A stretch of 64,000 nt of DNA, from the IMG/VR virus record IMGVR_UViG_2049941000_000086. One strand, written 5' to 3'. Origin of the DNA: an uncultured virus (IMG/VR IMGVR_UViG_2049941000_000086). Taxonomy: Duplodnaviria > Heunggongvirae > Uroviricota > Caudoviricetes. Position numbers and translations under genes: made by a program. Numbering within the stretch: the stretch's first letter is position 1; each line of letters starts with the position of its first letter. Below are positions 3,385 to 55,554 of the stretch, one piece after another. Below the pieces are notes generated by a model. The model did not search any database, was not told the DNA's origin, and worked only from the letters and a program-made list of their open reading frames with translations.

Positions 3385-3395
3385 GATCCCACCTT

Positions 3396-3560
3396 CTACT
3401 CGGTCACGATGTTGTCTCCGCCCTCTGTGATGATGTCGTCGTCCTGCTCAGTGACGATGTAACTGTTTGACGGAGGAACCGGGGTCTTCTCAAAAGGTAC
3501 TCTTCCAAGCCTCAACCCCGTCTGCAAACCTGCAAAGAAACTTTCGATATCGTAGTCCAT
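3396..3560 (-). CDS. small virion-associated protein (54 aa, not in the ORF track)
   Basis: Hand-translated MDYDIESFFAGLQTGLRLG...IVTEQDDDIITEGGDNIVTE*; translationally coupled to the upstream gene. Confidence 0.65.
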   Translation of the reverse strand: MDYDIESFFAGLQTGLRLGRVPFEKTPVPPSNSYIVTEQDDDIITEGGDNIVTE

Positions 3561-23449: not shown

Positions 23450-24025
23450 TTATCCCCTTGCCGCCTTGTATTCTTCCAGCTCCCGCTTTGCTTCCTCCGT
23501 GGCTTTCAGCAGCGCCTCCATCGCCTCCGGCGTGGTCTGCGCCGACATCATCATCTGGAACCTGCTCAGAGTGTCGTTCATGGCGGGAAGCATACCGTAG
23601 CACTCTGCGTTCAGGAGTTTTTCCAGCAGCTTGTAGTCCGCCACCAGGTCGTAGATTTTGCCCTGAAGTTCCTTGTCCGCCGTGCGCTTTTTGATGCGCT
23701 CAAGCTGGCTGATGAGGAAGCTGCGAGACGCGGCCTCGTAACTCTCGTCCGTGATGCTCCAAGGGTCTGCCTCCGTCTCTGCGTCATAGCCGAGGCGGAG
23801 ATACAGCTTCAGCAGCGCCGCCGTCATGTAACGGTGCTTCCGCACGGCGCTTTCCTTGTAGAAGGGCGGCAGCGGGTCTCCGTTCTCCGTCCCTATCTCC
23901 ATCTTGTCGAAGCATCCGGGGCTGACGTCCTTGATGAATTCTTCCTTGTCCCTCATGGAGACGTAACTGACGGCGACATCCCGCAGATGTTCTTCCGTCA
24001 GGCAGACGTTCTTCACGATTTCCAT
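23450..24025 (-). CDS. hypothetical protein
   Basis: 191-aa ORF, AAGGA RBS. Confidence 0.75.
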   Translation of the reverse strand: MEIVKNVCLTEEHLRDVAVSYVSMRDKEEFIKDVSPGCFDKMEIGTENGDPLPPFYKESAVRKHRYMTAALLKLYLRLGYDAETEADPWSITDESYEAASRSFLISQLERIKKRTADKELQGKIYDLVADYKLLEKLLNAECYGMLPAMNDTLSRFQMMMSAQTTPEAMEALLKATEEAKRELEEYKAARG

Positions 24026-48885: not shown

Positions 48886-49533
48886 TCAAAACCGTATCGG
48901 TGCTCCGGGGCGCTTCCCCGTCTGTACCGATTCCCAAAATTCTTCTTCCTGCTGAAGTAGCCACGCGAGATCAGCTTCATGCTCGCTGCGTTCGATAACG
49001 AATGCGTCCTTCAGGGTGATATCCCCGTTCATGTGCCACAGGGCCGGTTGCAGTACCACAAAGTCCCATCCGGTCGCAAGCAGTTGGTGGATGCACTGGC
49101 AGTAATACGCTTGAGGTATTTGACCGTCCCACTCTCTCCATGCCTCCCGGCTGTTTGGGGCAGAGGTCTTAATCTCCAAAATTCCGTTCCGACCGTCAGA
49201 AGATGTAATCTGCCCGTCAAGCGTCGCAAACAGCCAGGGCCGTTCCTCCTGATACAGAATGTCGTAGGGGTGGTACTCAATCCCGTATTCCGGGTGGAGG
49301 GCGGCGTAGAAGCCTCTCACAGCGGCCTCCATCAAATGCCCTCGTCCAACGTAATCCTTGCCGCTGATATCCTTCCGTTCCCTGCGCCCGGTGTGGATTT
49401 CCCAAAGTTCGTTTTTGGTCATCCACTTGGACATCCCGCAGACCGCCGCCGCCTCTGAAGCGCCCAACCCCCGCTCTGCTCGTCCCGCCAGCCAGGATGC
49501 CCGGTCAGGGTAACTAATTCGTTGGAGTGCCAT
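48886..49533 (-). CDS. YqaJ-like exonuclease
   Basis: GLGASEAAAVCG, ATLDG, LEIKT, YYCQCIHQL. Confidence 0.92.
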   Translation of the reverse strand: MALQRISYPDRASWLAGRAERGLGASEAAAVCGMSKWMTKNELWEIHTGRRERKDISGKDYVGRGHLMEAAVRGFYAALHPEYGIEYHPYDILYQEERPWLFATLDGQITSSDGRNGILEIKTSAPNSREAWREWDGQIPQAYYCQCIHQLLATGWDFVVLQPALWHMNGDITLKDAFVIERSEHEADLAWLLQQEEEFWESVQTGKRPGAPIRF

Positions 49534-50177
49534 TACGCCTGCATCACGTCAACGAGGTGGTAGCGCCCGTAGCCGCTGGTCCGCCCGCTGCCGATACCGA
49601 GACCGAATCCGGCGAGGTTGATGAAGCTGCAAAGTTGGTCGAGGCTGTAAACGTGGTCGGTGTAGTCCATCTTGAAGACGGCTTTCCAGCCGGAGAAGTG
49701 GCTGAGGCGCGTAGTGATGGGGGCACCGCGCTTCGGGGACATGAGGGTTTCCTCCAGCGTCCACTTGGCGAATGTGATGGGCACCAGGTTCCGCATCGCC
49801 ACGATGTTCACGGCGTTATCGACCTTCGTGGCGTACTTGTCGATCTCATTGCGGACGACGGCCTGACCGAAGGACTTCTTCAAACCGAAAGCGGAAATGC
49901 AGGGGGCGTTGTCTTTCAGCAGGGACTTGAGCATGGCTTCGTCACAGTCCTTGTAGGTGTCGGTGGTGGGCAGATCGTCCCGCCAGTGAATCGCGGTGAT
50001 GATGTCCTCCCAGGGGTTCGGGACTTCCCGGACCTTCTTGCGGTCGTCAGCCATCAGAGCGCGGCGATTCCGGGCGTTCATCTTGTTCAGGACGAGATCG
50101 CCGTCACCTTCGATGGTGATGATTGCGTGCTTGATCTTGATGGGTTCGATTTCGAGAATGTTGGCGTCCTTTTTCAT
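49533..50177 (-). CDS. solo RAMP/Cas7-like protein (Vipr-like effector candidate)
   Basis: ITIEGDGDLVL first strand, PCISAFGLKKS (cf. PxIPxSSLKG), C-terminal Gly loop AGFGLGIGSGRTSGYGRY. Confidence 0.75.
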   Translation of the reverse strand: MKKDANILEIEPIKIKHAIITIEGDGDLVLNKMNARNRRALMADDRKKVREVPNPWEDIITAIHWRDDLPTTDTYKDCDEAMLKSLLKDNAPCISAFGLKKSFGQAVVRNEIDKYATKVDNAVNIVAMRNLVPITFAKWTLEETLMSPKRGAPITTRLSHFSGWKAVFKMDYTDHVYSLDQLCSFINLAGFGLGIGSGRTSGYGRYHLVDVMQA

Positions 50178-50210
50178 GGTTTGCCGTTCTCCCTTTCTGA
50201 TTTAGAATTG

Positions 50211-50953
50211 CGCTCATGGGCGCGAGAATGACCTGTAATGTTGTGTCCTGTGCTATAAGGAACTGTTGTTGCTAGTAGTATTCCTTTGTATCCAGCAGTG
50301 TGTATATGGCGTTACAGGCCATTCTCCCGCCCGTGGGCGGTGTCCCCGGTCATCGTCGAAAGCTCGATGTTTTGTCATGCTGCGTTCTGTCCTCTGCCGA
50401 AGTGACATAGGCAAAAGTCAACTGTCTGCTGCGATTCCGTATCGTGCTTGGAGAGCATCAAGCCCTCGACGATGACCGGGGCGGTGATGTTTGTTCCGGG
50501 TTATGCTGTATTGTTCTGGTCTATCGCGTAATGACTTGTGCTGTGCTTTACTTTATTTTTCTGTACGGTCTGTGGTCGCTCCAGAGAGCGCCGGGAAAGG
50601 TTCTACCTTCTGTTATAGTGTGCTATCGTATAGTCTTGTCTTATAACCTGTTGTGAATTGACAAGTCCGCTGTTGCCATGATTGATACTGTTGAAAGTGA
50701 ATTTGTGATTTGAAGGGAGAGCCCTTCCCGGTGTCCTCTGTTTTGTGCTGTAATGCAGGATAGTAAAGCGTTCTCGGCTGTTACGTTCTGATTTGTACCG
50801 AAGTGCGATGCGCTTGCACGGCGAGTGCGCGGAACGCTCGTTTTGATTTATAGTGTGTTGTTATGTCTCACGCTGTTATTTCGTGAGTAAAGGTGTTCAA
50901 TCCGTTTTTGCAGGATTATTTGTTGGGAGCCGAACGCTCCGCGCACTCGCCGT
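50211..50953 (-). ncRNA. guide-RNA-like array: four ~27-30-bp stems and six tracts of NN+ACA-like pentamers
   Basis: Inverted repeats 50211-40/50310-39, 50344-72/50453-81, 50584-610/50712-38, 50818-44/50927-53; YGT-NN periodicity on the + strand; strand inferred from the flanking genes. Confidence 0.8.
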
Positions 50954-50959
50954 CAGAGT

Positions 50960-51466
50960 TCACGCCGTCTTGGATAGTTCCTCCACCGCCTCAATCAGCC
51001 GGGTCAGTTCCGCCCGGTCTTTGAGGATGCTGTATTTTCGCTGAAAAGCCAGCAGTTCACTCAGGGCTGATTGGAGAAGCCGCTGATATTCGTCGTCGTT
51101 GCGGACGGTGAATTCGATGGACCTGTACCCACGTTCCTCCTCGTTGCTTTCGGAATCAACGCCGCCGGACAGGTGGAATATCCTGACGGGTTCTGATACT
51201 TCGTCGTCGCTTTCTGCCGTTCGGATAATCAGGTGGTGGACGATGGTTCTTGCTTCCTGCTTGCGCCACTTTTCGGCGGCGGCATCGTTGTCCCATGTGA
51301 AGCACTTGTGAAGCTCCGTCGCTTCGTCCCGCGCTTTCTCTACGATTTGCTCCGGCGTTGCAGTGTCACCGATGCTTTTGATTTCCCGATAGACGCCCTG
51401 TGCGTTCGCTCCGTGGAACAGGCACTCAAAGCGCGGGTCCCAGCTCGCTATCAGTTCTCCCCTCAC
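50960..51466 (-). CDS. hypothetical protein upstream of the array (accessory candidate)
   Basis: TPEQIVEKARD..LHKCFTWDNDAAAEKWRKQEAR motif; GGAGG RBS. Confidence 0.75.
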   Translation of the reverse strand: MRGELIASWDPRFECLFHGANAQGVYREIKSIGDTATPEQIVEKARDEATELHKCFTWDNDAAAEKWRKQEARTIVHHLIIRTAESDDEVSEPVRIFHLSGGVDSESNEEERGYRSIEFTVRNDDEYQRLLQSALSELLAFQRKYSILKDRAELTRLIEAVEELSKTA

Positions 51467-51686
51467 TTTCTTCCTCCTTCTGAATCAGCCGATACCTGGC
51501 GTACCGGCAAGTATCGCCGTCGCTGTTCTTTCCTTCTTCCATCGTGGTGACGATGTTGTGGCCGAGCCTTTTCAAGTCGTAAATTCTTCCGGAAAGTCTG
51601 GTGCAACGAAAATGCTGGATGGCTTCCCAGCTCGTGATGCTTCCGTGCTCCTGAAGGTAGGCCAGGATCTTTTCGCTGTCGCTCAT
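51426..51686 (-). CDS. winged-HTH protein (HTH_39-like)
   Basis: ILAYL..GSITSWEA..CTRLSGRIYDLK..G..I..YARYRL. Confidence 0.75.
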   Translation of the reverse strand: MSDSEKILAYLQEHGSITSWEAIQHFRCTRLSGRIYDLKRLGHNIVTTMEEGKNSDGDTCRYARYRLIQKEEESEGRTDSELGPAL

Positions 51687-52306
51687 GCTGTCACCTCCAA
51701 TTTCTTCGCCGCCGATCTTTCCCGGTCCTTCGCCCGGATTTCCTCCCGGTGCTTCTCCCGCCATCGCCGCTTGTATTCCCTTATCTGCTCCTTGTGAGTG
51801 AGGCGGTACATTGCCCGGTAGGCAGCTATCTCGTCCTTGTGTTCCTCCGCATATCGGCGGAACCGTTCGGCGTACTGCTCCTTGTTTGCCTCGTAGTGCG
51901 CCTTGTGGTACTCCGCCAGTTCTTCCCGGTGGGTCTCGCGGTAAGTACGACCTCGCTCTTTCTCTTTCTCAGGTTCAGCTTCGCGCACTGCCTTTGCCCG
52001 CTCAAGCACGGTCTCACGATTGGCGGCGTACCATTCACGATGCTTGGCATTGATTTCCTCGCGGTGGGCTGCACGGTAGGCTTTCTTCTTCTCGTGGATC
52101 TCTTCCCGGTGATCGTTGTGATACTTCCGTGAGCGGAGCGCCGCTTTCGCCGCCTTGGGTTCTCTCCGCTCCTGGCGGATCTCCCAGTCCATTTGCCTCG
52201 CGGCTTCGTACTCTTCCCGGTCAAAGGCGAGCTGCCCTTCGATTTCCGCATCGTATGCCGCCAGTTCTTCCAGTTCTTCCGGGGTAAATGGGATTAAGGC
52301 ACTCAA
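51683..52306 (-). CDS. hypothetical protein with YxxxHREE helical repeats
   Basis: Repeated Y/W-x-x-x-H/N-R/K-E units. Confidence 0.65.
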   Translation of the reverse strand: MSALIPFTPEELEELAAYDAEIEGQLAFDREEYEAARQMDWEIRQERREPKAAKAALRSRKYHNDHREEIHEKKKAYRAAHREEINAKHREWYAANRETVLERAKAVREAEPEKEKERGRTYRETHREELAEYHKAHYEANKEQYAERFRRYAEEHKDEIAAYRAMYRLTHKEQIREYKRRWREKHREEIRAKDRERSAAKKLEVTA

Positions 52307-53665: not shown

Positions 53666-54190
53666 TTGGTGTTTTTTCACATATTCGGTGCATTGTGCGA
53701 GAGAAGTGGGGAGTCTAAGAGTGCTGCTGCAAAGGCGTGTGGTCTGAGCAATTCCACTGTTACTAAATGGAAGAAGACCCAGGCAGTACCTGAGTCTTCA
53801 ACGCTAATGAAGATTGCGGAGCACTTCGGCGTCACGATGGATTACCTTCTCGGTGCTACGCCGGAATCCTATCTACTCGGCACAGAGTATCAATTAAAGG
53901 AAGCTGAAAAGGCATACGGCAAAGAGACCGACCCAAATGAACGTGAAAGACTTGGCGGCCTAATTGACTTCTTGCGCGATTCCGTATCCGATCAACGAGC
54001 ATTGCTCTCTGCAACAAAAATACCCGCCACCGAAAGTGGTGACGGGAGTGATGATACTAGCGATAAGTCAGAACTCATGAATCTTTATGATTCTTTTGAT
54101 TCTTCCGATCGCGCTCGGCTTTTAGCATTCGCGCAAGGGCTAAGACTTTCTCGTATTCCTCATGAGAAAGTTCCTCCAAAAGACGCTTGA
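53666..54190 (+). CDS. CI-like XRE repressor
   Basis: AAKACGLSNSTVTKWKK..P..TLMKIAEHFGVTMDYLLG. Confidence 0.88.
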   Translation: MVFFHIFGALCERSGESKSAAAKACGLSNSTVTKWKKTQAVPESSTLMKIAEHFGVTMDYLLGATPESYLLGTEYQLKEAEKAYGKETDPNERERLGGLIDFLRDSVSDQRALLSATKIPATESGDGSDDTSDKSELMNLYDSFDSSDRARLLAFAQGLRLSRIPHEKVPPKDA

Positions 54191-54357: not shown

Positions 54358-55554
54358 TTGCGTCGCTTGAAAGGTGGATTGTCGTTGGTCTGTATCAAAT
54401 GCGGGGCCGAAGTCGCTGATGCTCCATTCTGCGGTAAGTGCGGTGCAAGGCAAGAAAGAGTCGTGCCTAAATCCCGTGGCTTGAAAAAGCGTGGCAACGG
54501 CCAGGGTTGCGTTTACAAACTTCCGAACGGGAAGTATCAAGCTATCGTCACGCGGGGGTACGTTTTGGACGAGAACGGTAAGCGTCATTTGAGACGCCGG
54601 ACCAAGGTGTTTGACAAAAAGAAAGACGCTATCCTTGCTTTGCCAGACCTGATGCGTGAACGCCAATCCGAAACAGTACGTCTCTGGACGTTCAAGGAAG
54701 TATTCGATAAATGGATACCAACGCACAAGGCAGGAAAGTCTACCATAGGCAATTACAGCGCCGCCGTCAAATACTTTGACACTTTGTTCTTTGTCCCGTT
54801 TGCTGATATAGACATTGACGACTTGCAGGAGTGCATAGACGATTGCCCACGAGGGCGAAGGACAAAGGAAAACATGAGAGCTTGCGCAGGACTGATGTAT
54901 AAGTTTGCCATCCCGCGCCATGCCACGCGAGATAACCTAAACCTATCGGAATACCTGTCCGTTGACGGGGACGCTGCGGCACACCGGAGTTCGTTTGATG
55001 ACGCTCAGATACGTCAGATAATCAAAGCGGCGCAGAGCGGAACTGTACCCTACGCCGAAGAAGTTATGTGCTTGGTCTTCCTTGGATTTCGACCGTCAGA
55101 GTTTCTGGAACTCACCGATGAGAGCTACAACAAAGAAAAGAGGTGCCTTACGGGTGGAGCGAAGACAGAAGCCGGTAAGGGTCGAACTGTGACGGTCTCT
55201 CCTTTAATTCTGTCGTTCGTCGAATCAAGGGCTGAGAGCAAAGGTCCGCTATTCAGAAACCCGGATGGGAAAACTTGGGGGCTGAAGCACTTTACGGAGA
55301 AAGCCTTTTACCCGGCTCTTGAAGCCATTGGGATCGAGAACCCTATCGTCACCATCGGAGGAGGACTCAAACGCCATAAATATACCCCCCACTCCTGCCG
55401 ACACACCTTTGCCACATTGATGAAGAAGGTAGAAGGTGCGGAGAAAGACAAGTTGGAACTGATGGGGCACACGTCCGGCGAAATGCTCCGATACTACCAG
55501 GATGTTGGCGTGGAAGACCTCCGGAAAATCACCGACAACCTTTGGAAAGCCTGA
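54358..55554 (+). CDS. tyrosine integrase with N-terminal zinc ribbon (likely start TTG ~54385)
   Basis: CxxC..CxxC, RGNGQG arm-binding motif, GFRPSE, KTEAG, HSCRHT, MGH..YY. Confidence 0.93.
   Translation: MRRLKGGLSLVCIKCGAEVADAPFCGKCGARQERVVPKSRGLKKRGNGQGCVYKLPNGKYQAIVTRGYVLDENGKRHLRRRTKVFDKKKDAILALPDLMRERQSETVRLWTFKEVFDKWIPTHKAGKSTIGNYSAAVKYFDTLFFVPFADIDIDDLQECIDDCPRGRRTKENMRACAGLMYKFAIPRHATRDNLNLSEYLSVDGDAAAHRSSFDDAQIRQIIKAAQSGTVPYAEEVMCLVFLGFRPSEFLELTDESYNKEKRCLTGGAKTEAGKGRTVTVSPLILSFVESRAESKGPLFRNPDGKTWGLKHFTEKAFYPALEAIGIENPIVTIGGGLKRHKYTPHSCRHTFATLMKKVEGAEKDKLELMGHTSGEMLRYYQDVGVEDLRKITDNLWKA

What the first reader, a model, noticed from the sequence alone, without database searches (positions are those of the whole stretch)
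50211..50953. Array delimited by four unrelated long imperfect stems instead of direct repeats
Four 27-30-bp inverted repeats with internal mismatches, each of different sequence, enclose four periodic tracts. Two more tracts (50492-50566, 50739-50818) lie between stems. Inference: staggered cuts in each stem (RNase III-like) would release six separate guides from the operon mRNA. Non-identical stems would avoid recombinational loss and defeat CRISPR-detection tools. G-U wobbles do not clearly favour either strand.
Basis: partly seen in the sequence, partly recalled or inferred. Interest (0 to 1): 0.8.

Follow-up and report, generated by a model that had tools for sequence, protein, structure and literature searches.

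The report
Phage VIPR guide-RNA array with stems
This gene-free stretch of a rumen prophage most likely encodes six guide RNAs for a small CRISPR-like phage protein (a VIPR system, first described in 2026), and here the guides are separated by long RNA stems of unrelated sequence instead of repeats.

Summary
Four long imperfect inverted repeats (arms 23-29 nt, loops 73-101 nt) sit at the stated coordinates and enclose or flank six A/C-rich tracts (minus strand).

They are not an isolated oddity. The gap lies between a conserved 168-aa gene and a 214-aa gene whose product is a Csm3/Cas7-like RAMP, homologous to the Vipr protein of phage phiSUSP1. In 81 of 81 related viral loci the same gene is preceded by 1-10 such stem-loops.

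The tracts are 5-nt repeats with a fixed triad (A-C-A on the gene strand) and two free bases. That is the design of VIPR guide RNAs described in 2026 preprints. Read with the published one-base-skip rule, the free bases of one window tract match 13 consecutive codons of a regulator gene in another phage. The prophage's own copy of that gene matches poorly.

New relative to the VIPR texts I could search:
- Long stems of unrelated sequence, kept by compensatory changes, bracket each guide.
- Tracts lie both inside and between the stems.
- The triad on the gene strand contains no G.

RNase III cutting and the transcribed strand remain untested. This scan has met VIPR on other DNA before.

The parts
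50960..51466 (-). 168-aa gene directly upstream of the array; candidate Vipr-accessory (vap-like) gene of unknown fold
   Evidence: A homologue lies upstream of the array on the same strand in 78 of 80 related loci, while the other neighbours vary. It matches phrog_15946, function unknown, and no Pfam family. AF2 gives pLDDT 80.4, with no convincing fold match.
50818..50953 (-). Stem-loop 4, first in the direction of transcription: arms 50931-50953 and 50818-50840; loop tract T6 at 50841-50930 (16 pentamer units)
   Evidence: Arms, register. The free dinucleotides of T6 match 29 of 32 positions in the HTH_39 gene of viral contig L127, including 13 consecutive units. They match 25-26 of 32 in 29 further contigs.
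50741..50817 (-). Inter-stem tract T5 (15 units)
   Evidence: Lag-5 identity 0.40; register. Inter-stem gaps across the family show the same periodicity.
50582..50740 (-). Stem-loop 3: arms 50712-50740 and 50582-50610; loop tract T4 at 50611-50711 (20 units)
   Evidence: Two 9-unit pattern scans gave 0 and 1 hits, and the single hit did not extend.
50482..50581 (-). Inter-stem tract T3 (18 units, the cleanest A-C-A/NN register in the window)
   Evidence: Lag-5 identity 0.43; units listed. The scan gave 5 hits that did not extend beyond the seed (22-24 of 36).
50344..50481 (-). Stem-loop 2: arms 50456-50481 and 50344-50369; loop tract T2 at 50370-50455, poorly periodic and possibly degenerate
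   Evidence: The state-path parse left it out. A forced register gives 11 units.
50211..50339 (-). Stem-loop 1: arms 50312-50339 and 50211-50238; loop tract T1 at 50239-50311 (12-15 units); ends 34 nt before the vipr start codon
   Evidence: The pattern scan gave 0 hits.
49533..50177 (-). vipr: 214-aa single-domain RAMP (Csm3/Cas7-like) with the G-rich loop GIGSGRTSGYG
   Evidence: AF2 pLDDT 79.2, pTM 0.74. Foldseek against PDB gives 46 matches at E<=0.001; the listed rows are type III Csm/Cmr complexes and subunits plus one type VII entry, best E 1.1e-5. The family profile finds the phiSUSP1 Vipr ORF at E 8.6e-5. hhalign gives E 3e-5, probability 73%, over 62 columns.
51426..51764 (-). The prophage's own HTH_39 winged-helix gene (the ORF as listed; the real start is probably the internal ATG near 51686). 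It is the self copy of the gene family that tract T6 targets; it is not part of the system itself
   Evidence: Pfam HTH_39 at E 1.4e-18. The site homologous to the T6 target reads NSDGDTCRYARYRLIQ and matches T6 at only 21 of 32 positions.

Best explanation
Window 49533-51466 (minus strand) is a VIPR system (Viral Interference Programmable Repeat) of a temperate phage of gut or rumen Clostridia. It has three parts: a candidate accessory gene, an array of six guide RNAs (vrRNAs), and the vipr gene.

Proposed mechanism:
1. The early operon transcript carries the array in front of vipr.
2. Each guide is a run of 11-20 pentamers, each made of a fixed triad (A-C-A on the gene strand) and two free bases.
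3. By analogy with the solved phiSUSP1 complex, one Vipr protomer binds each pentamer, buries the triad and presents the two free bases.
4. The string of free dinucleotides reads double-stranded DNA while skipping every third base. It therefore reads codon positions 1-2 and ignores the wobble position.
5. The filament silences genes of competing phages. Tract T6 is aimed at the winged-helix (HTH_39) early gene of other phages.
6. The four long stems are RNA structures on the gene strand. They bracket the guides and most likely mark where the transcript is cut, with host RNase III the obvious candidate. Cutting would free both the loop tracts and the inter-stem tracts.

Shown here: homology of the protein, the pentamer design, conservation and covariation of the stems, hypervariable tracts between invariant stems, and natural targets under the skip rule.

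Inferred: binding, silencing, cutting, and which strand is the guide.
For: Protein:
- RAMP fold.
- Homology to the experimentally studied phiSUSP1 Vipr.
- In phiSUSP1 the ORF that the profile finds is flanked by GGY/NN arrays on its own strand, as bioRxiv 10.64898/2026.04.26.720920 describes (Results read).

Linkage:
- 81 of 81 viral loci have 1-10 stem-loops just upstream of the gene, and some have more just downstream.
- 8 of 9 loci in bacterial MAGs have them upstream as well.

Code:
- 5-nt periodicity.
- Gene-strand profile A 0.69 / C 0.47 / A 0.79 / N / N.
- The same signal in 68 distinct inter-stem gaps.

Guide-like evolution: in 22 loci of one clade the last stem is nearly invariant, while the loop differs in 21 of them in sequence and length, 62-136 nt.

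Stems: 10-15 of 22 positions show double compensatory changes in four stem clusters.

Strand: G.U outnumbers A.C by 424 to 106 on the gene strand with strand-symmetric detection.

Targets in a 0.48-Mb local library, 251 guides, counted as guides with per-guide E<0.01:
- 8 with 1-nt skip.
- 0, 1 and 2 with skips of 0, 2 and 3 nt. The two at skip 3 score E<0.001 (best 3e-21); I took them to be copies of arrays left unmasked and did not inspect them.
- 0-2 in the shuffled and reversed controls.
Of the 8, two are related guides on one site, and one target contains a stop codon. The other 6 sites lie in frame in open frames of 161-262 aa.

One guide matches the G-loop codons of rival vipr genes at 22 of 24 positions, against 19 of 24 for its own vipr.

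Window tract T6:
- 30 viral contigs hit, against 5, 0, 0, 0 and 1 for five other window patterns of equal design.
- 13 consecutive units match in L127, in an HTH_39 gene.
- The prophage's own copy matches at 21 of 32.
Against: - No expression, end-mapping or binding data exist for this element. RNA-library contigs cover only 50148-50380 and cannot show strand or ends.
- The fixed triad is not the canonical GGY. The SUSP1 residues that read G1 and G2 (D177, W178; section 5 of 10.64898/2026.04.26.720927) align to S and G here.
- The opposite strand would read U-G-U/NN, which is closer to the published motifs, so the guide strand is not settled.
- Only 1 of 6 window tracts has a convincing target in IMG/VR. 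T2 is poorly periodic.
- Homology to SUSP1 Vipr rests on the C-terminal 62 columns at moderate probability (73%).
- The 168-aa partner has no detectable DNA-binding fold.
- The promoter and terminator scan shows nothing above shuffles.
Confidence: 0.85

Rival explanations
1. It is a VIPR system, but the guides are transcribed from the window's plus strand, antisense to vipr, and read U-G-U/NN. On this reading the stems act on the sense mRNA or are incidental to the guides.
For: - U-G-U keeps the G2 and Y3 of canonical GGY. Degenerate units in the phiSUSP1 arrays are often TGT or AGT.
- The Evo-PIN preprint lists WGT/NN and TGH/NN as non-canonical VIPR motifs (10.64898/2026.10.21.760802, passages).
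- The plus-strand composition (U/G-rich) resembles SUSP1 guides.
- All 7 independent significant guide-target pairs have the gene-strand NN string identical to the coding strand of the target. A plus-strand RNA would therefore be complementary to the coding strand or the mRNA.
- One promoter-like site on the plus strand lies at 50181-50208.
Against: - The stems that bracket every tract are selected on the gene strand: G.U 424 against A.C 106.
- In the two near-invariant stem clusters, most single-sided changes are G.U on that strand. The first cluster has only such changes. The second also has one C.A and one A.G.
- Orientation relative to vipr is fixed in 81 of 81 loci. The last stem ends 22-140 nt before the start codon, so the array is transcribed with vipr in any case.
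- In phiSUSP1 the guides are on the vipr strand.
- The promoter-like site is within the shuffle expectation (1 found; shuffles mean 1.2). I saw no such site in the spacers printed for another clade (by eye only).
Confidence: 0.2
2. It is a VIPR system on the gene strand, but the stems are not cut. They would act as clamps that protect the guide ends, or as double-stranded stops that limit how far the Vipr filament spreads. The array would then work as one multi-guide RNA, or be cut elsewhere by another nuclease.
For: - Structure, not sequence, is conserved.
- The loop tracts run up to the 3' arm.
- The published phiSUSP1 guides end in a structured 3' tail rather than a cut stem.
- No cleavage data exist.
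Against: - Tracts between stems look like those inside stems. This is easiest to explain if cuts in the stems free both kinds.
- The arms (median 27 nt) exceed the roughly two helical turns that RNase III needs (recalled knowledge, not tested).
- Published VIPR arrays use dedicated separators such as hammerhead ribozymes.
Confidence: 0.3
3. The region is a DNA-level element, such as a replication origin, a cruciform or a recombination site of the prophage's RecT/YqaJ module, and not an RNA array.
For: It lies in the early region just upstream of the recombination genes. Inverted repeats and AT-richer DNA are common at phage origins (general knowledge).
Against: - A 4:1 excess of G.U over A.C on one strand is not expected for DNA hairpins.
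- The element travels with the RAMP gene, not with the recombination genes: YqaJ is present in 7 of 80 loci and RecT in 4 of 80.
- The 5-nt triad/NN code and the in-frame matches to other phages' genes have no place in an origin.
Confidence: 0.02

Closest known systems
Type II VIPR systems of Escherichia phage phiSUSP1 and a Pseudomonas fulva prophage (bioRxiv 10.64898/2026.04.26.720920; structures in 10.64898/2026.04.26.720927)
   Same: - A small phage-encoded single-domain RAMP with a partner gene.
- Guide RNAs of about 100 nt in the flanking intergenic DNA, on the gene strand.
- Pentamer repeats with three fixed and two free bases.
- Targets read with a one-base skip that falls on the wobble position.
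- Targets in rival phages, including other vipr genes.
   Different: - The fixed triad is A-C-A on the gene strand instead of GGY.
- The SUSP1 G-contacting residues are not conserved.
- Guides are bracketed by 23-29-bp stems of unrelated sequence instead of carrying a conserved 3' tail with a pseudoknot.
- The protein family has an invariant GDxDL after strand 1 that SUSP1 Vipr lacks.
- Hosts are gut Clostridia.
Non-canonical VIPR arrays in the Evo-PIN/COMPASS preprint (bioRxiv 10.64898/2026.10.21.760802): GAC/NN, CAC/NN, WGT/NN, TGH/NN
   Same: Period-5 arrays beside a Vipr-like fold with a fixed triad other than GGY. Read on the opposite strand, this family (T 0.79, G 0.47, T 0.69) would fit TGH/NN or WGT/NN.
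   Different: That text orients sequences by embeddings and does not settle the strand. In the passages I saw it does not mention closing stems. I could not see its figure S10, so I cannot say whether this family is among its 21 clusters.
Other published ways of separating vrRNAs: staggered arrays and hammerhead-ribozyme-interspersed arrays (10.64898/2026.04.26.720920, Results and legends of figs S18-S19)
   Same: Several guides are made from one transcript, with a built-in device at each boundary.
   Different: Here the device is a long imperfect duplex that would need a host double-strand RNase, not a self-cleaving ribozyme. Guides lie both inside and between the duplexes.
RNase III processing stalks: leader-trailer helices around 16S/23S rRNA, phage T7 early-mRNA sites, and the tracrRNA:pre-crRNA duplex of type II CRISPR (recalled knowledge, no call)
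   Same: Long-range or local duplexes of two or more helical turns, with unrelated sequence but conserved pairing, that enclose or flank the RNA to be released.
   Different: Cleavage is not shown here. The enclosed RNA is a protein-coated guide, not rRNA or mRNA.
Type III CRISPR backbone subunits Csm3/Cmr4 (Cas7)
   Same: Best structural matches of the 214-aa protein, with a G-rich loop. The solved relatives bind along a guide RNA at a fixed step.
   Different: - No CRISPR repeats.
- No other cas families among the 19 ORFs scanned between 43.9 and 58.9 kb.
- Step of 5 nt, not 6.
- Below the Pfam RAMP threshold.

Membership tests
VIPR system | Small stand-alone RAMP (Vipr) with an RRM core, thumb and glycine-rich loop, homologous to described Vipr proteins | tested here: met
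   The AF2 model matches Csm3/Cmr4/Cas7 chains (46 at E<=0.001). The G-loop is GIGSGRTSGYG. The profile hits the phiSUSP1 Vipr ORF at E 8.6e-5. hhalign gives E 3e-5, probability 73%, over 62 columns. The homology is moderate and limited to the C-terminal third.
VIPR system | Non-CRISPR context: no CRISPR array, minimal locus with one accessory gene | tested here: met
   No direct-repeat array. Neighbours are ordinary prophage early genes. One conserved partner gene is present in 78 of 80 loci. Only 19 ORFs between 43.9 and 58.9 kb were scanned for families.
VIPR system | vrRNAs made of about 9-16 tandem pentamers with three fixed and two hypervariable bases | tested here: met
   Lag-5/10/15 identity 0.434-0.444 in 193 loops. 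Information content 0.64/0.26/0.93/0.03/0.06 bits per position. Window tracts hold 11-20 units. Loops are hypervariable between invariant stems.
VIPR system | Canonical GGY triad, or the printed variants NNNGG, YNNNG and NNNNG | tested here: not met
   The gene-strand triad is A-C-A with G at 0.06-0.10. Only the opposite strand (U-G-U) approaches YNNNG, WGT or TGH, and the stems argue for the gene strand. This is a variant of the code, not a failure of the design.
VIPR system | Free dinucleotides read DNA with a 1-nt skip; targets lie in rival mobile elements; the skip falls on the wobble position; no self-targets | tested here: met
   Excess of significant matches only at skip 1 (8 against 0-2 in the other skips and controls). 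In-frame targets in early genes of related phages. Window T6 matches the HTH_39 genes of 30 viral contigs. No window guide reaches 80% anywhere in the masked window. T6 on the prophage's own gene scores 21 of 32. Computational only.
VIPR system | vrRNAs expressed and bound by Vipr; silencing of the target | not testable with these tools
   Only one contig from an RNA library covers 50148-50380, and it shows no strand or ends.
VIPR system | Assignment to one of the seven published types (Vipr phylogeny, vap1-6, array architecture) | not testable with these tools
   The type tables, trees and logos are figures or data files that I could not read. The supplement PDF text held only methods and legends.
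RNase III processing stalk | Double-stranded RNA of about two helical turns or more, with pairing conserved by covariation | tested here: met
   Arms median 27 nt, range 19-47. 10-15 of 22 positions carry compensatory double changes in four clusters. G.U 424 against A.C 106.
RNase III processing stalk | Staggered cleavage in the stem that depends on RNase III | not testable with these tools
   No raw-read RNA data for this element.
CRISPR-Cas | Array of near-identical direct repeats with spacers, plus adaptation genes | tested here: not met
   The direct-repeat families in 49800-51400 are short and 66-85% alike. The stems differ from one another. No Cas1 or Cas2 family among the 19 ORFs scanned.

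The most novel reading that the evidence does not exclude
This Clostridia-prophage clade may be a distinct VIPR type with three features of its own:
- Its guide RNAs use a G-free A-C-A/NN code on the gene strand, read by a Vipr whose guanine-contacting residues have been replaced.
- Its array has structure-only 'repeats': long duplexes of unrelated sequence that the host's RNase III cuts. Both the enclosed and the intervening segments would then become guides, giving a CRISPR-like array that no repeat finder can see.
- Its guides are aimed, with a fixed polarity, at the template strand of early genes of rival phages, including rival vipr genes.
Probability: 0.35. Interest if true: 0.7.

Novelty: new variant of a known kind. 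Interest (0 to 1): 0.5.

Why it matters
VIPR is a months-old class of RNA-guided DNA silencers, put forward as a precursor of CRISPR.

This family is abundant: 2305 proteins at E<=0.001. It lives in gut and rumen Clostridia prophages, far from the studied E. coli and Pseudomonas examples.

It offers three handles:
- A different fixed triad, paired with altered RNA-contact residues, which bears on how Vipr reads its repeat.
- A different way of delimiting guides, by long stems instead of tails or ribozymes, which bears on guide maturation and on how to find such arrays.
- Clear natural targets, including guides aimed at the conserved G-loop codons of rival vipr genes.

If the stems are RNase III sites, host RNase III becomes a required factor for a phage weapon.

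Tried and rejected
- Rfam: nothing. The one match was a plant miRNA model at E 0.71, 21 bits against a threshold of 197.
- DNA similarity to deposited phages: no match.
- The protein against deposited phages by tblastn: no match.
- The protein against PDB sequences: no match.
- NCBIfam: no family for 18 members.
- Retron, integron attC, MITE, ToxIN-type repeats, and put-like or nut-like antiterminators were considered from the anatomy and dropped. There is no reverse transcriptase or integron integrase among the neighbours, the stems are unrelated in sequence, and the RAMP link then explained the element.
- The window's own assembly is not held. A near-identical viral record was used instead.
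- Sequencing runs: the element occurs in bovine gut and rumen metagenomes. Four putative RNA runs gave only contigs. One covers 50148-50380 and none covers the rest of the array. This shows neither expression nor its absence.
- Target scans for T3, T4 (two halves), T5 and T1 in IMG/VR gave 5, 0, 1, 0 and 0 hits. None extended beyond the 9-unit seed (22-24 of 36; 22 of 40). These scans need exact matches, so imperfect targets are missed.
- The 168-aa partner: Foldseek best E 0.84 (weak MarR-like rows). VIA-align matched only the C-terminal helical hairpin at Z 7, which is within noise for helical models. No family could be assigned.
- Promoter and terminator scan: no more sites than in shuffles.
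- The viral contigs that T6 targets (G002-G004) gave no hit to the vipr profile. Two of them are rated complete, one is 72% complete.
Full report
THE OBSERVATION

Window 50178-50959 is a 780-nt gene-free gap in a long minus-strand operon. The four pairs share no sequence with each other.

The gap folds far better than shuffled copies on either strand (z -9.07 and -8.42). Rfam has nothing for it. Counting wobble pairs in the window alone gives 8 that favour the minus strand and 5 the plus strand.

CONTEXT

The window is a prophage from bovine gut or rumen metagenomes.
- Plus strand: integrase (54358-55554) and a CI-like repressor (53666-54190).
- Minus-strand early operon: an excisionase-like HTH, an HNH endonuclease, an HTH_39 winged-helix gene (51426-51764), a 168-aa gene (50960-51466), the gap, a 214-aa gene (49533-50177), then a YqaJ exonuclease, DUF1351, a sigma factor, RecT and an SSB-like gene.

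THE PROTEIN PARTNER

The 214-aa protein belongs to a large unnamed family: 2305 proteins at E<=0.001, none with a Pfam domain, and 1003 representatives at the 50% identity level. It ends in GIGSGRTSGYG, the GhGxxxxxGhG loop of RAMP proteins (the motif name is recalled).

An AlphaFold model (pLDDT 79.2, pTM 0.74) matches 46 PDB chains at E<=0.001. The rows listed are type III Csm and Cmr complexes or their subunits, plus one type VII entry. The best is at E 1.1e-5, with TM 0.45-0.53. Relatives touch the Pfam RAMP and Cas6 models only below threshold.

THE LINK BETWEEN PROTEIN AND STEMS

I fetched 80 viral loci with the family alignment and two with the upstream gene.
- In 81 of 81 loci (73 unique upstream regions), 1-10 long stem-loops lie directly upstream of the RAMP gene. 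In several loci more lie directly downstream.
- Over 193 distinct modules the arms have a median of 27 nt (range 19-47) and the loops 75 nt (range 43-136).
- With strand-symmetric scoring, the upstream regions hold 171 stems. Block-shuffled copies hold 0, and coding DNA 700-1800 nt downstream holds 7.
- Nine loci in bacterial MAGs, mostly Clostridia, repeat the picture: 8 upstream, 1 downstream only.
- The 168-aa gene sits upstream of the array in 78 of 80 loci, while the other neighbours change.

THE CODE IN THE TRACTS

- Loops are A/C-rich on the gene strand: A 0.48, C 0.21, U 0.17, G 0.14.
- They have a sharp 5-nt period.
- The unit is A (0.69), C (0.47), A (0.79), then two positions with almost no information.
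- Inter-stem gaps are bimodal among 146 gaps: 41 are <=15 nt and 93 are 40-200 nt. The long ones carry the same period and composition.
- In the window the register gives 11-20 units per tract. T2 is poorly periodic.

WHAT IS IN PRINT

A text search led to bioRxiv 10.64898/2026.04.26.720920. I read its abstract, Results, Discussion, two Methods sections, passages found by term search, and the searchable supplement text. It describes VIPR systems as follows:
- A phage-encoded ancestral RAMP (Vipr, about 20 kDa), an accessory gene, and vrRNAs of about 100 nt in the flanking intergenic DNA.
- vrRNAs built of 9-16 YNNGG pentamers (GGY fixed, NN free) followed by a structured 3' tail.
- The NN bases read double-stranded DNA with a one-base skip that tends to fall on the wobble position.
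- Targets are rival phages, satellites and other VIPRs.
- There are seven types. Arrays may be plain, staggered or interspersed with hammerhead ribozymes. Variant repeats are NNNGG, YNNNG and NNNNG.

The companion structure paper (abstract and section 5 read) shows one protomer per repeat and names the residues that hold G1, G2 and Y3.

A later preprint, 10.64898/2026.10.21.760802 (passages and section 33 read), reports 21 period-5 clusters with other triads: GAC, CAC, WGT and TGH.

For a third VIPR preprint, 10.64898/2026.10.15.759431, I saw only the listing and one term search.

In three of these four texts, searches for 'stem', 'hairpin' and 'RNase III' or 'RNase' found only the SUSP1 tail hairpin and an RNase A step. 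I did not run that search on the structure paper, of which I read only the abstract and section 5. Figures and data files were not readable, so I cannot exclude that this architecture is drawn there.

MEMBERSHIP

- The family profile finds one ORF in phiSUSP1 (E 8.6e-5). That ORF is flanked on its own strand by one upstream and three downstream GGY/NN arrays, which matches the paper's description of the SUSP1 locus. It is therefore the SUSP1 Vipr.
- hhalign aligns the last 62 columns, including the G-loop (E 3e-5, probability 73%).
- In that alignment SUSP1 D177 and W178, the contacts to the two guanines, face S197 and G198. R179 faces the invariant R199.

NATURAL TARGETS

I parsed 260 in-phase runs of 8 or more units from all loci. 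I searched 251 of them against 0.48 Mb of window plus loci, on both strands, with the arrays masked.

Guides with a per-guide E<0.01:
- 1-nt skip: 8.
- 0-, 2- and 3-nt skips: 0, 1 and 2. The two at skip 3 score E<0.001 (best 3e-21). I took them to be copies of arrays left unmasked and did not inspect them.
- Controls with shuffled unit order or reversed guides: 0-2.

The 8 break down as follows. Two are related guides on one site. One has a stop codon in its target and is probably chance. The other 6 sites lie in frame in open frames of 161-262 aa, with the skipped base at the wobble position.

The target genes include:
- A P-loop protein (sub-threshold AAA_24).
- A metallo-beta-lactamase-fold protein, targeted reciprocally by two sister phages.
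- A protein with a GIDPG motif and no Pfam match.
- The G-loop codons of rival vipr genes: 22 of 24 positions on two rivals, 19 of 24 on the guide's own gene.

For the window itself I scanned IMG/VR with six 9-unit patterns.
- T6 gave 30 contigs. The other five gave 5, 0, 0, 0 and 1, and none of those extended.
- All T6 hits fall on one site of a small HTH_39 gene (Pfam E 6.3e-18).
- In L127, a 98-kb phage, 13 consecutive units match (29 of 32 positions). In the other 29 contigs 25-26 of 32 match, with the wobble bases varying freely.
- The prophage's own HTH_39 gene reads differently at that site and matches at 21 of 32.

THE STEMS

- In one clade, 22 loci share a nearly invariant last stem, while the loop between its arms differs in 21 of them in both sequence and length, 62-136 nt. 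This is the pattern of a conserved handle around a fast-changing guide.
- In more divergent clusters, 10-15 of 22 stem positions show double compensatory changes.
- Single changes are mostly G.U on the gene strand. The family totals are 491 against 111, and 424 against 106 with symmetric detection.

The stems are therefore RNA structures on the vipr strand. Their length fits an RNase III substrate (recalled knowledge). Cutting in them would free loop and inter-stem tracts alike. That step is inference.

WHAT REMAINS OPEN

- The guide strand. The stems say the gene strand. But U-G-U/NN on the other strand is closer to the printed motifs.
- Target polarity. All 7 independent target pairs have the gene-strand NN string equal to the coding strand of the target (two-sided p about 0.016). 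This would let a plus-strand RNA pair with the mRNA. I put the gene strand at about 0.75-0.8.
- The role of the invariant GDxDL after strand 1. It is absent from SUSP1 Vipr and lies at a place that recalls the catalytic Asp of Csm3 (recalled, untested).
- The role of the 168-aa partner, which has no recognisable fold.

VERDICT

The element is a member of the VIPR class published in 2026, which this scan has met many times on other DNA (298 notes in at least 233 genomes).

It differs from the described forms in three ways: its stem-bracketed array, guides both inside and between the stems, and a G-free triad on the gene strand. I rate it a new variant of a known kind.

Noticed in passing
window 49533-50177 (residues 24-28 of the product): G24-D25-x-D27-L28 after the first strand is invariant in the 9-sequence family alignment and absent from phiSUSP1 Vipr. 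Its position recalls the catalytic aspartate of Csm3/Cmr4 (recalled). This clade might cleave its target rather than only bind it.
   Followed up: no
L009/L015 vipr genes and L016 last loop; L069 and L070: One guide is aimed at the conserved G-loop codons (INYAGFGLGIGS) of rival vipr genes. The guide's own gene uses other codons at that site (IDYSGF...). Two sister phages carry guides against each other's metallo-beta-lactamase-fold gene.
   Followed up: partly
all seven significant guide-target pairs (loci L009, L052, L069, L070, L071, L127; window 23465-23503): In every pair the gene-strand NN string equals the coding strand of the target gene. The published VIPR text reports targets on both strands.
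   Followed up: partly
L023, L026, L036 (last module, start of the loop): The loop begins with a copy of part of the 3' arm (GCCACAGCAAG). The 5' arm could therefore also form a short local hairpin. This may be a scar of loop exchange or an alternative fold.
   Followed up: no
L006 2631-3363: Four of the five stems are paralogues that keep a G.G mismatch and a U.G wobble within ACCGYUGA/UGAGCGGU. This suggests a recognised irregularity in the helix. A hairpin flanked by A-runs at about 3393-3450 would be a terminator only for antisense transcription.
   Followed up: no
window 51426-51764: The listed HTH_39 ORF starts with a glycine-rich 26-residue extension and overlaps the next gene. The real start is probably the internal ATG (MSDSEKIL...), which matches the 69-aa homologue in L127.
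   Followed up: no
window 50181-50208 (+): A single sigma-70-like site (TTGCCG-16-TAGAAT) points into the array on the plus strand. It is within the shuffle expectation, and I saw no counterpart in the spacers of another clade (by eye).
   Followed up: partly
window 23465-23503 (-): A guide from another phage (L037) matches 21 of 26 positions in frame in a 191-aa gene of this prophage (per-guide E 0.0036). This prophage may itself be a target.
   Followed up: no
L132 and L139: Two of the nine genomic loci lie in MAGs labelled Muribaculaceae and Prevotella, while the rest are Clostridia. This may reflect mis-binning of a phage contig or a wider host range.
   Followed up: no
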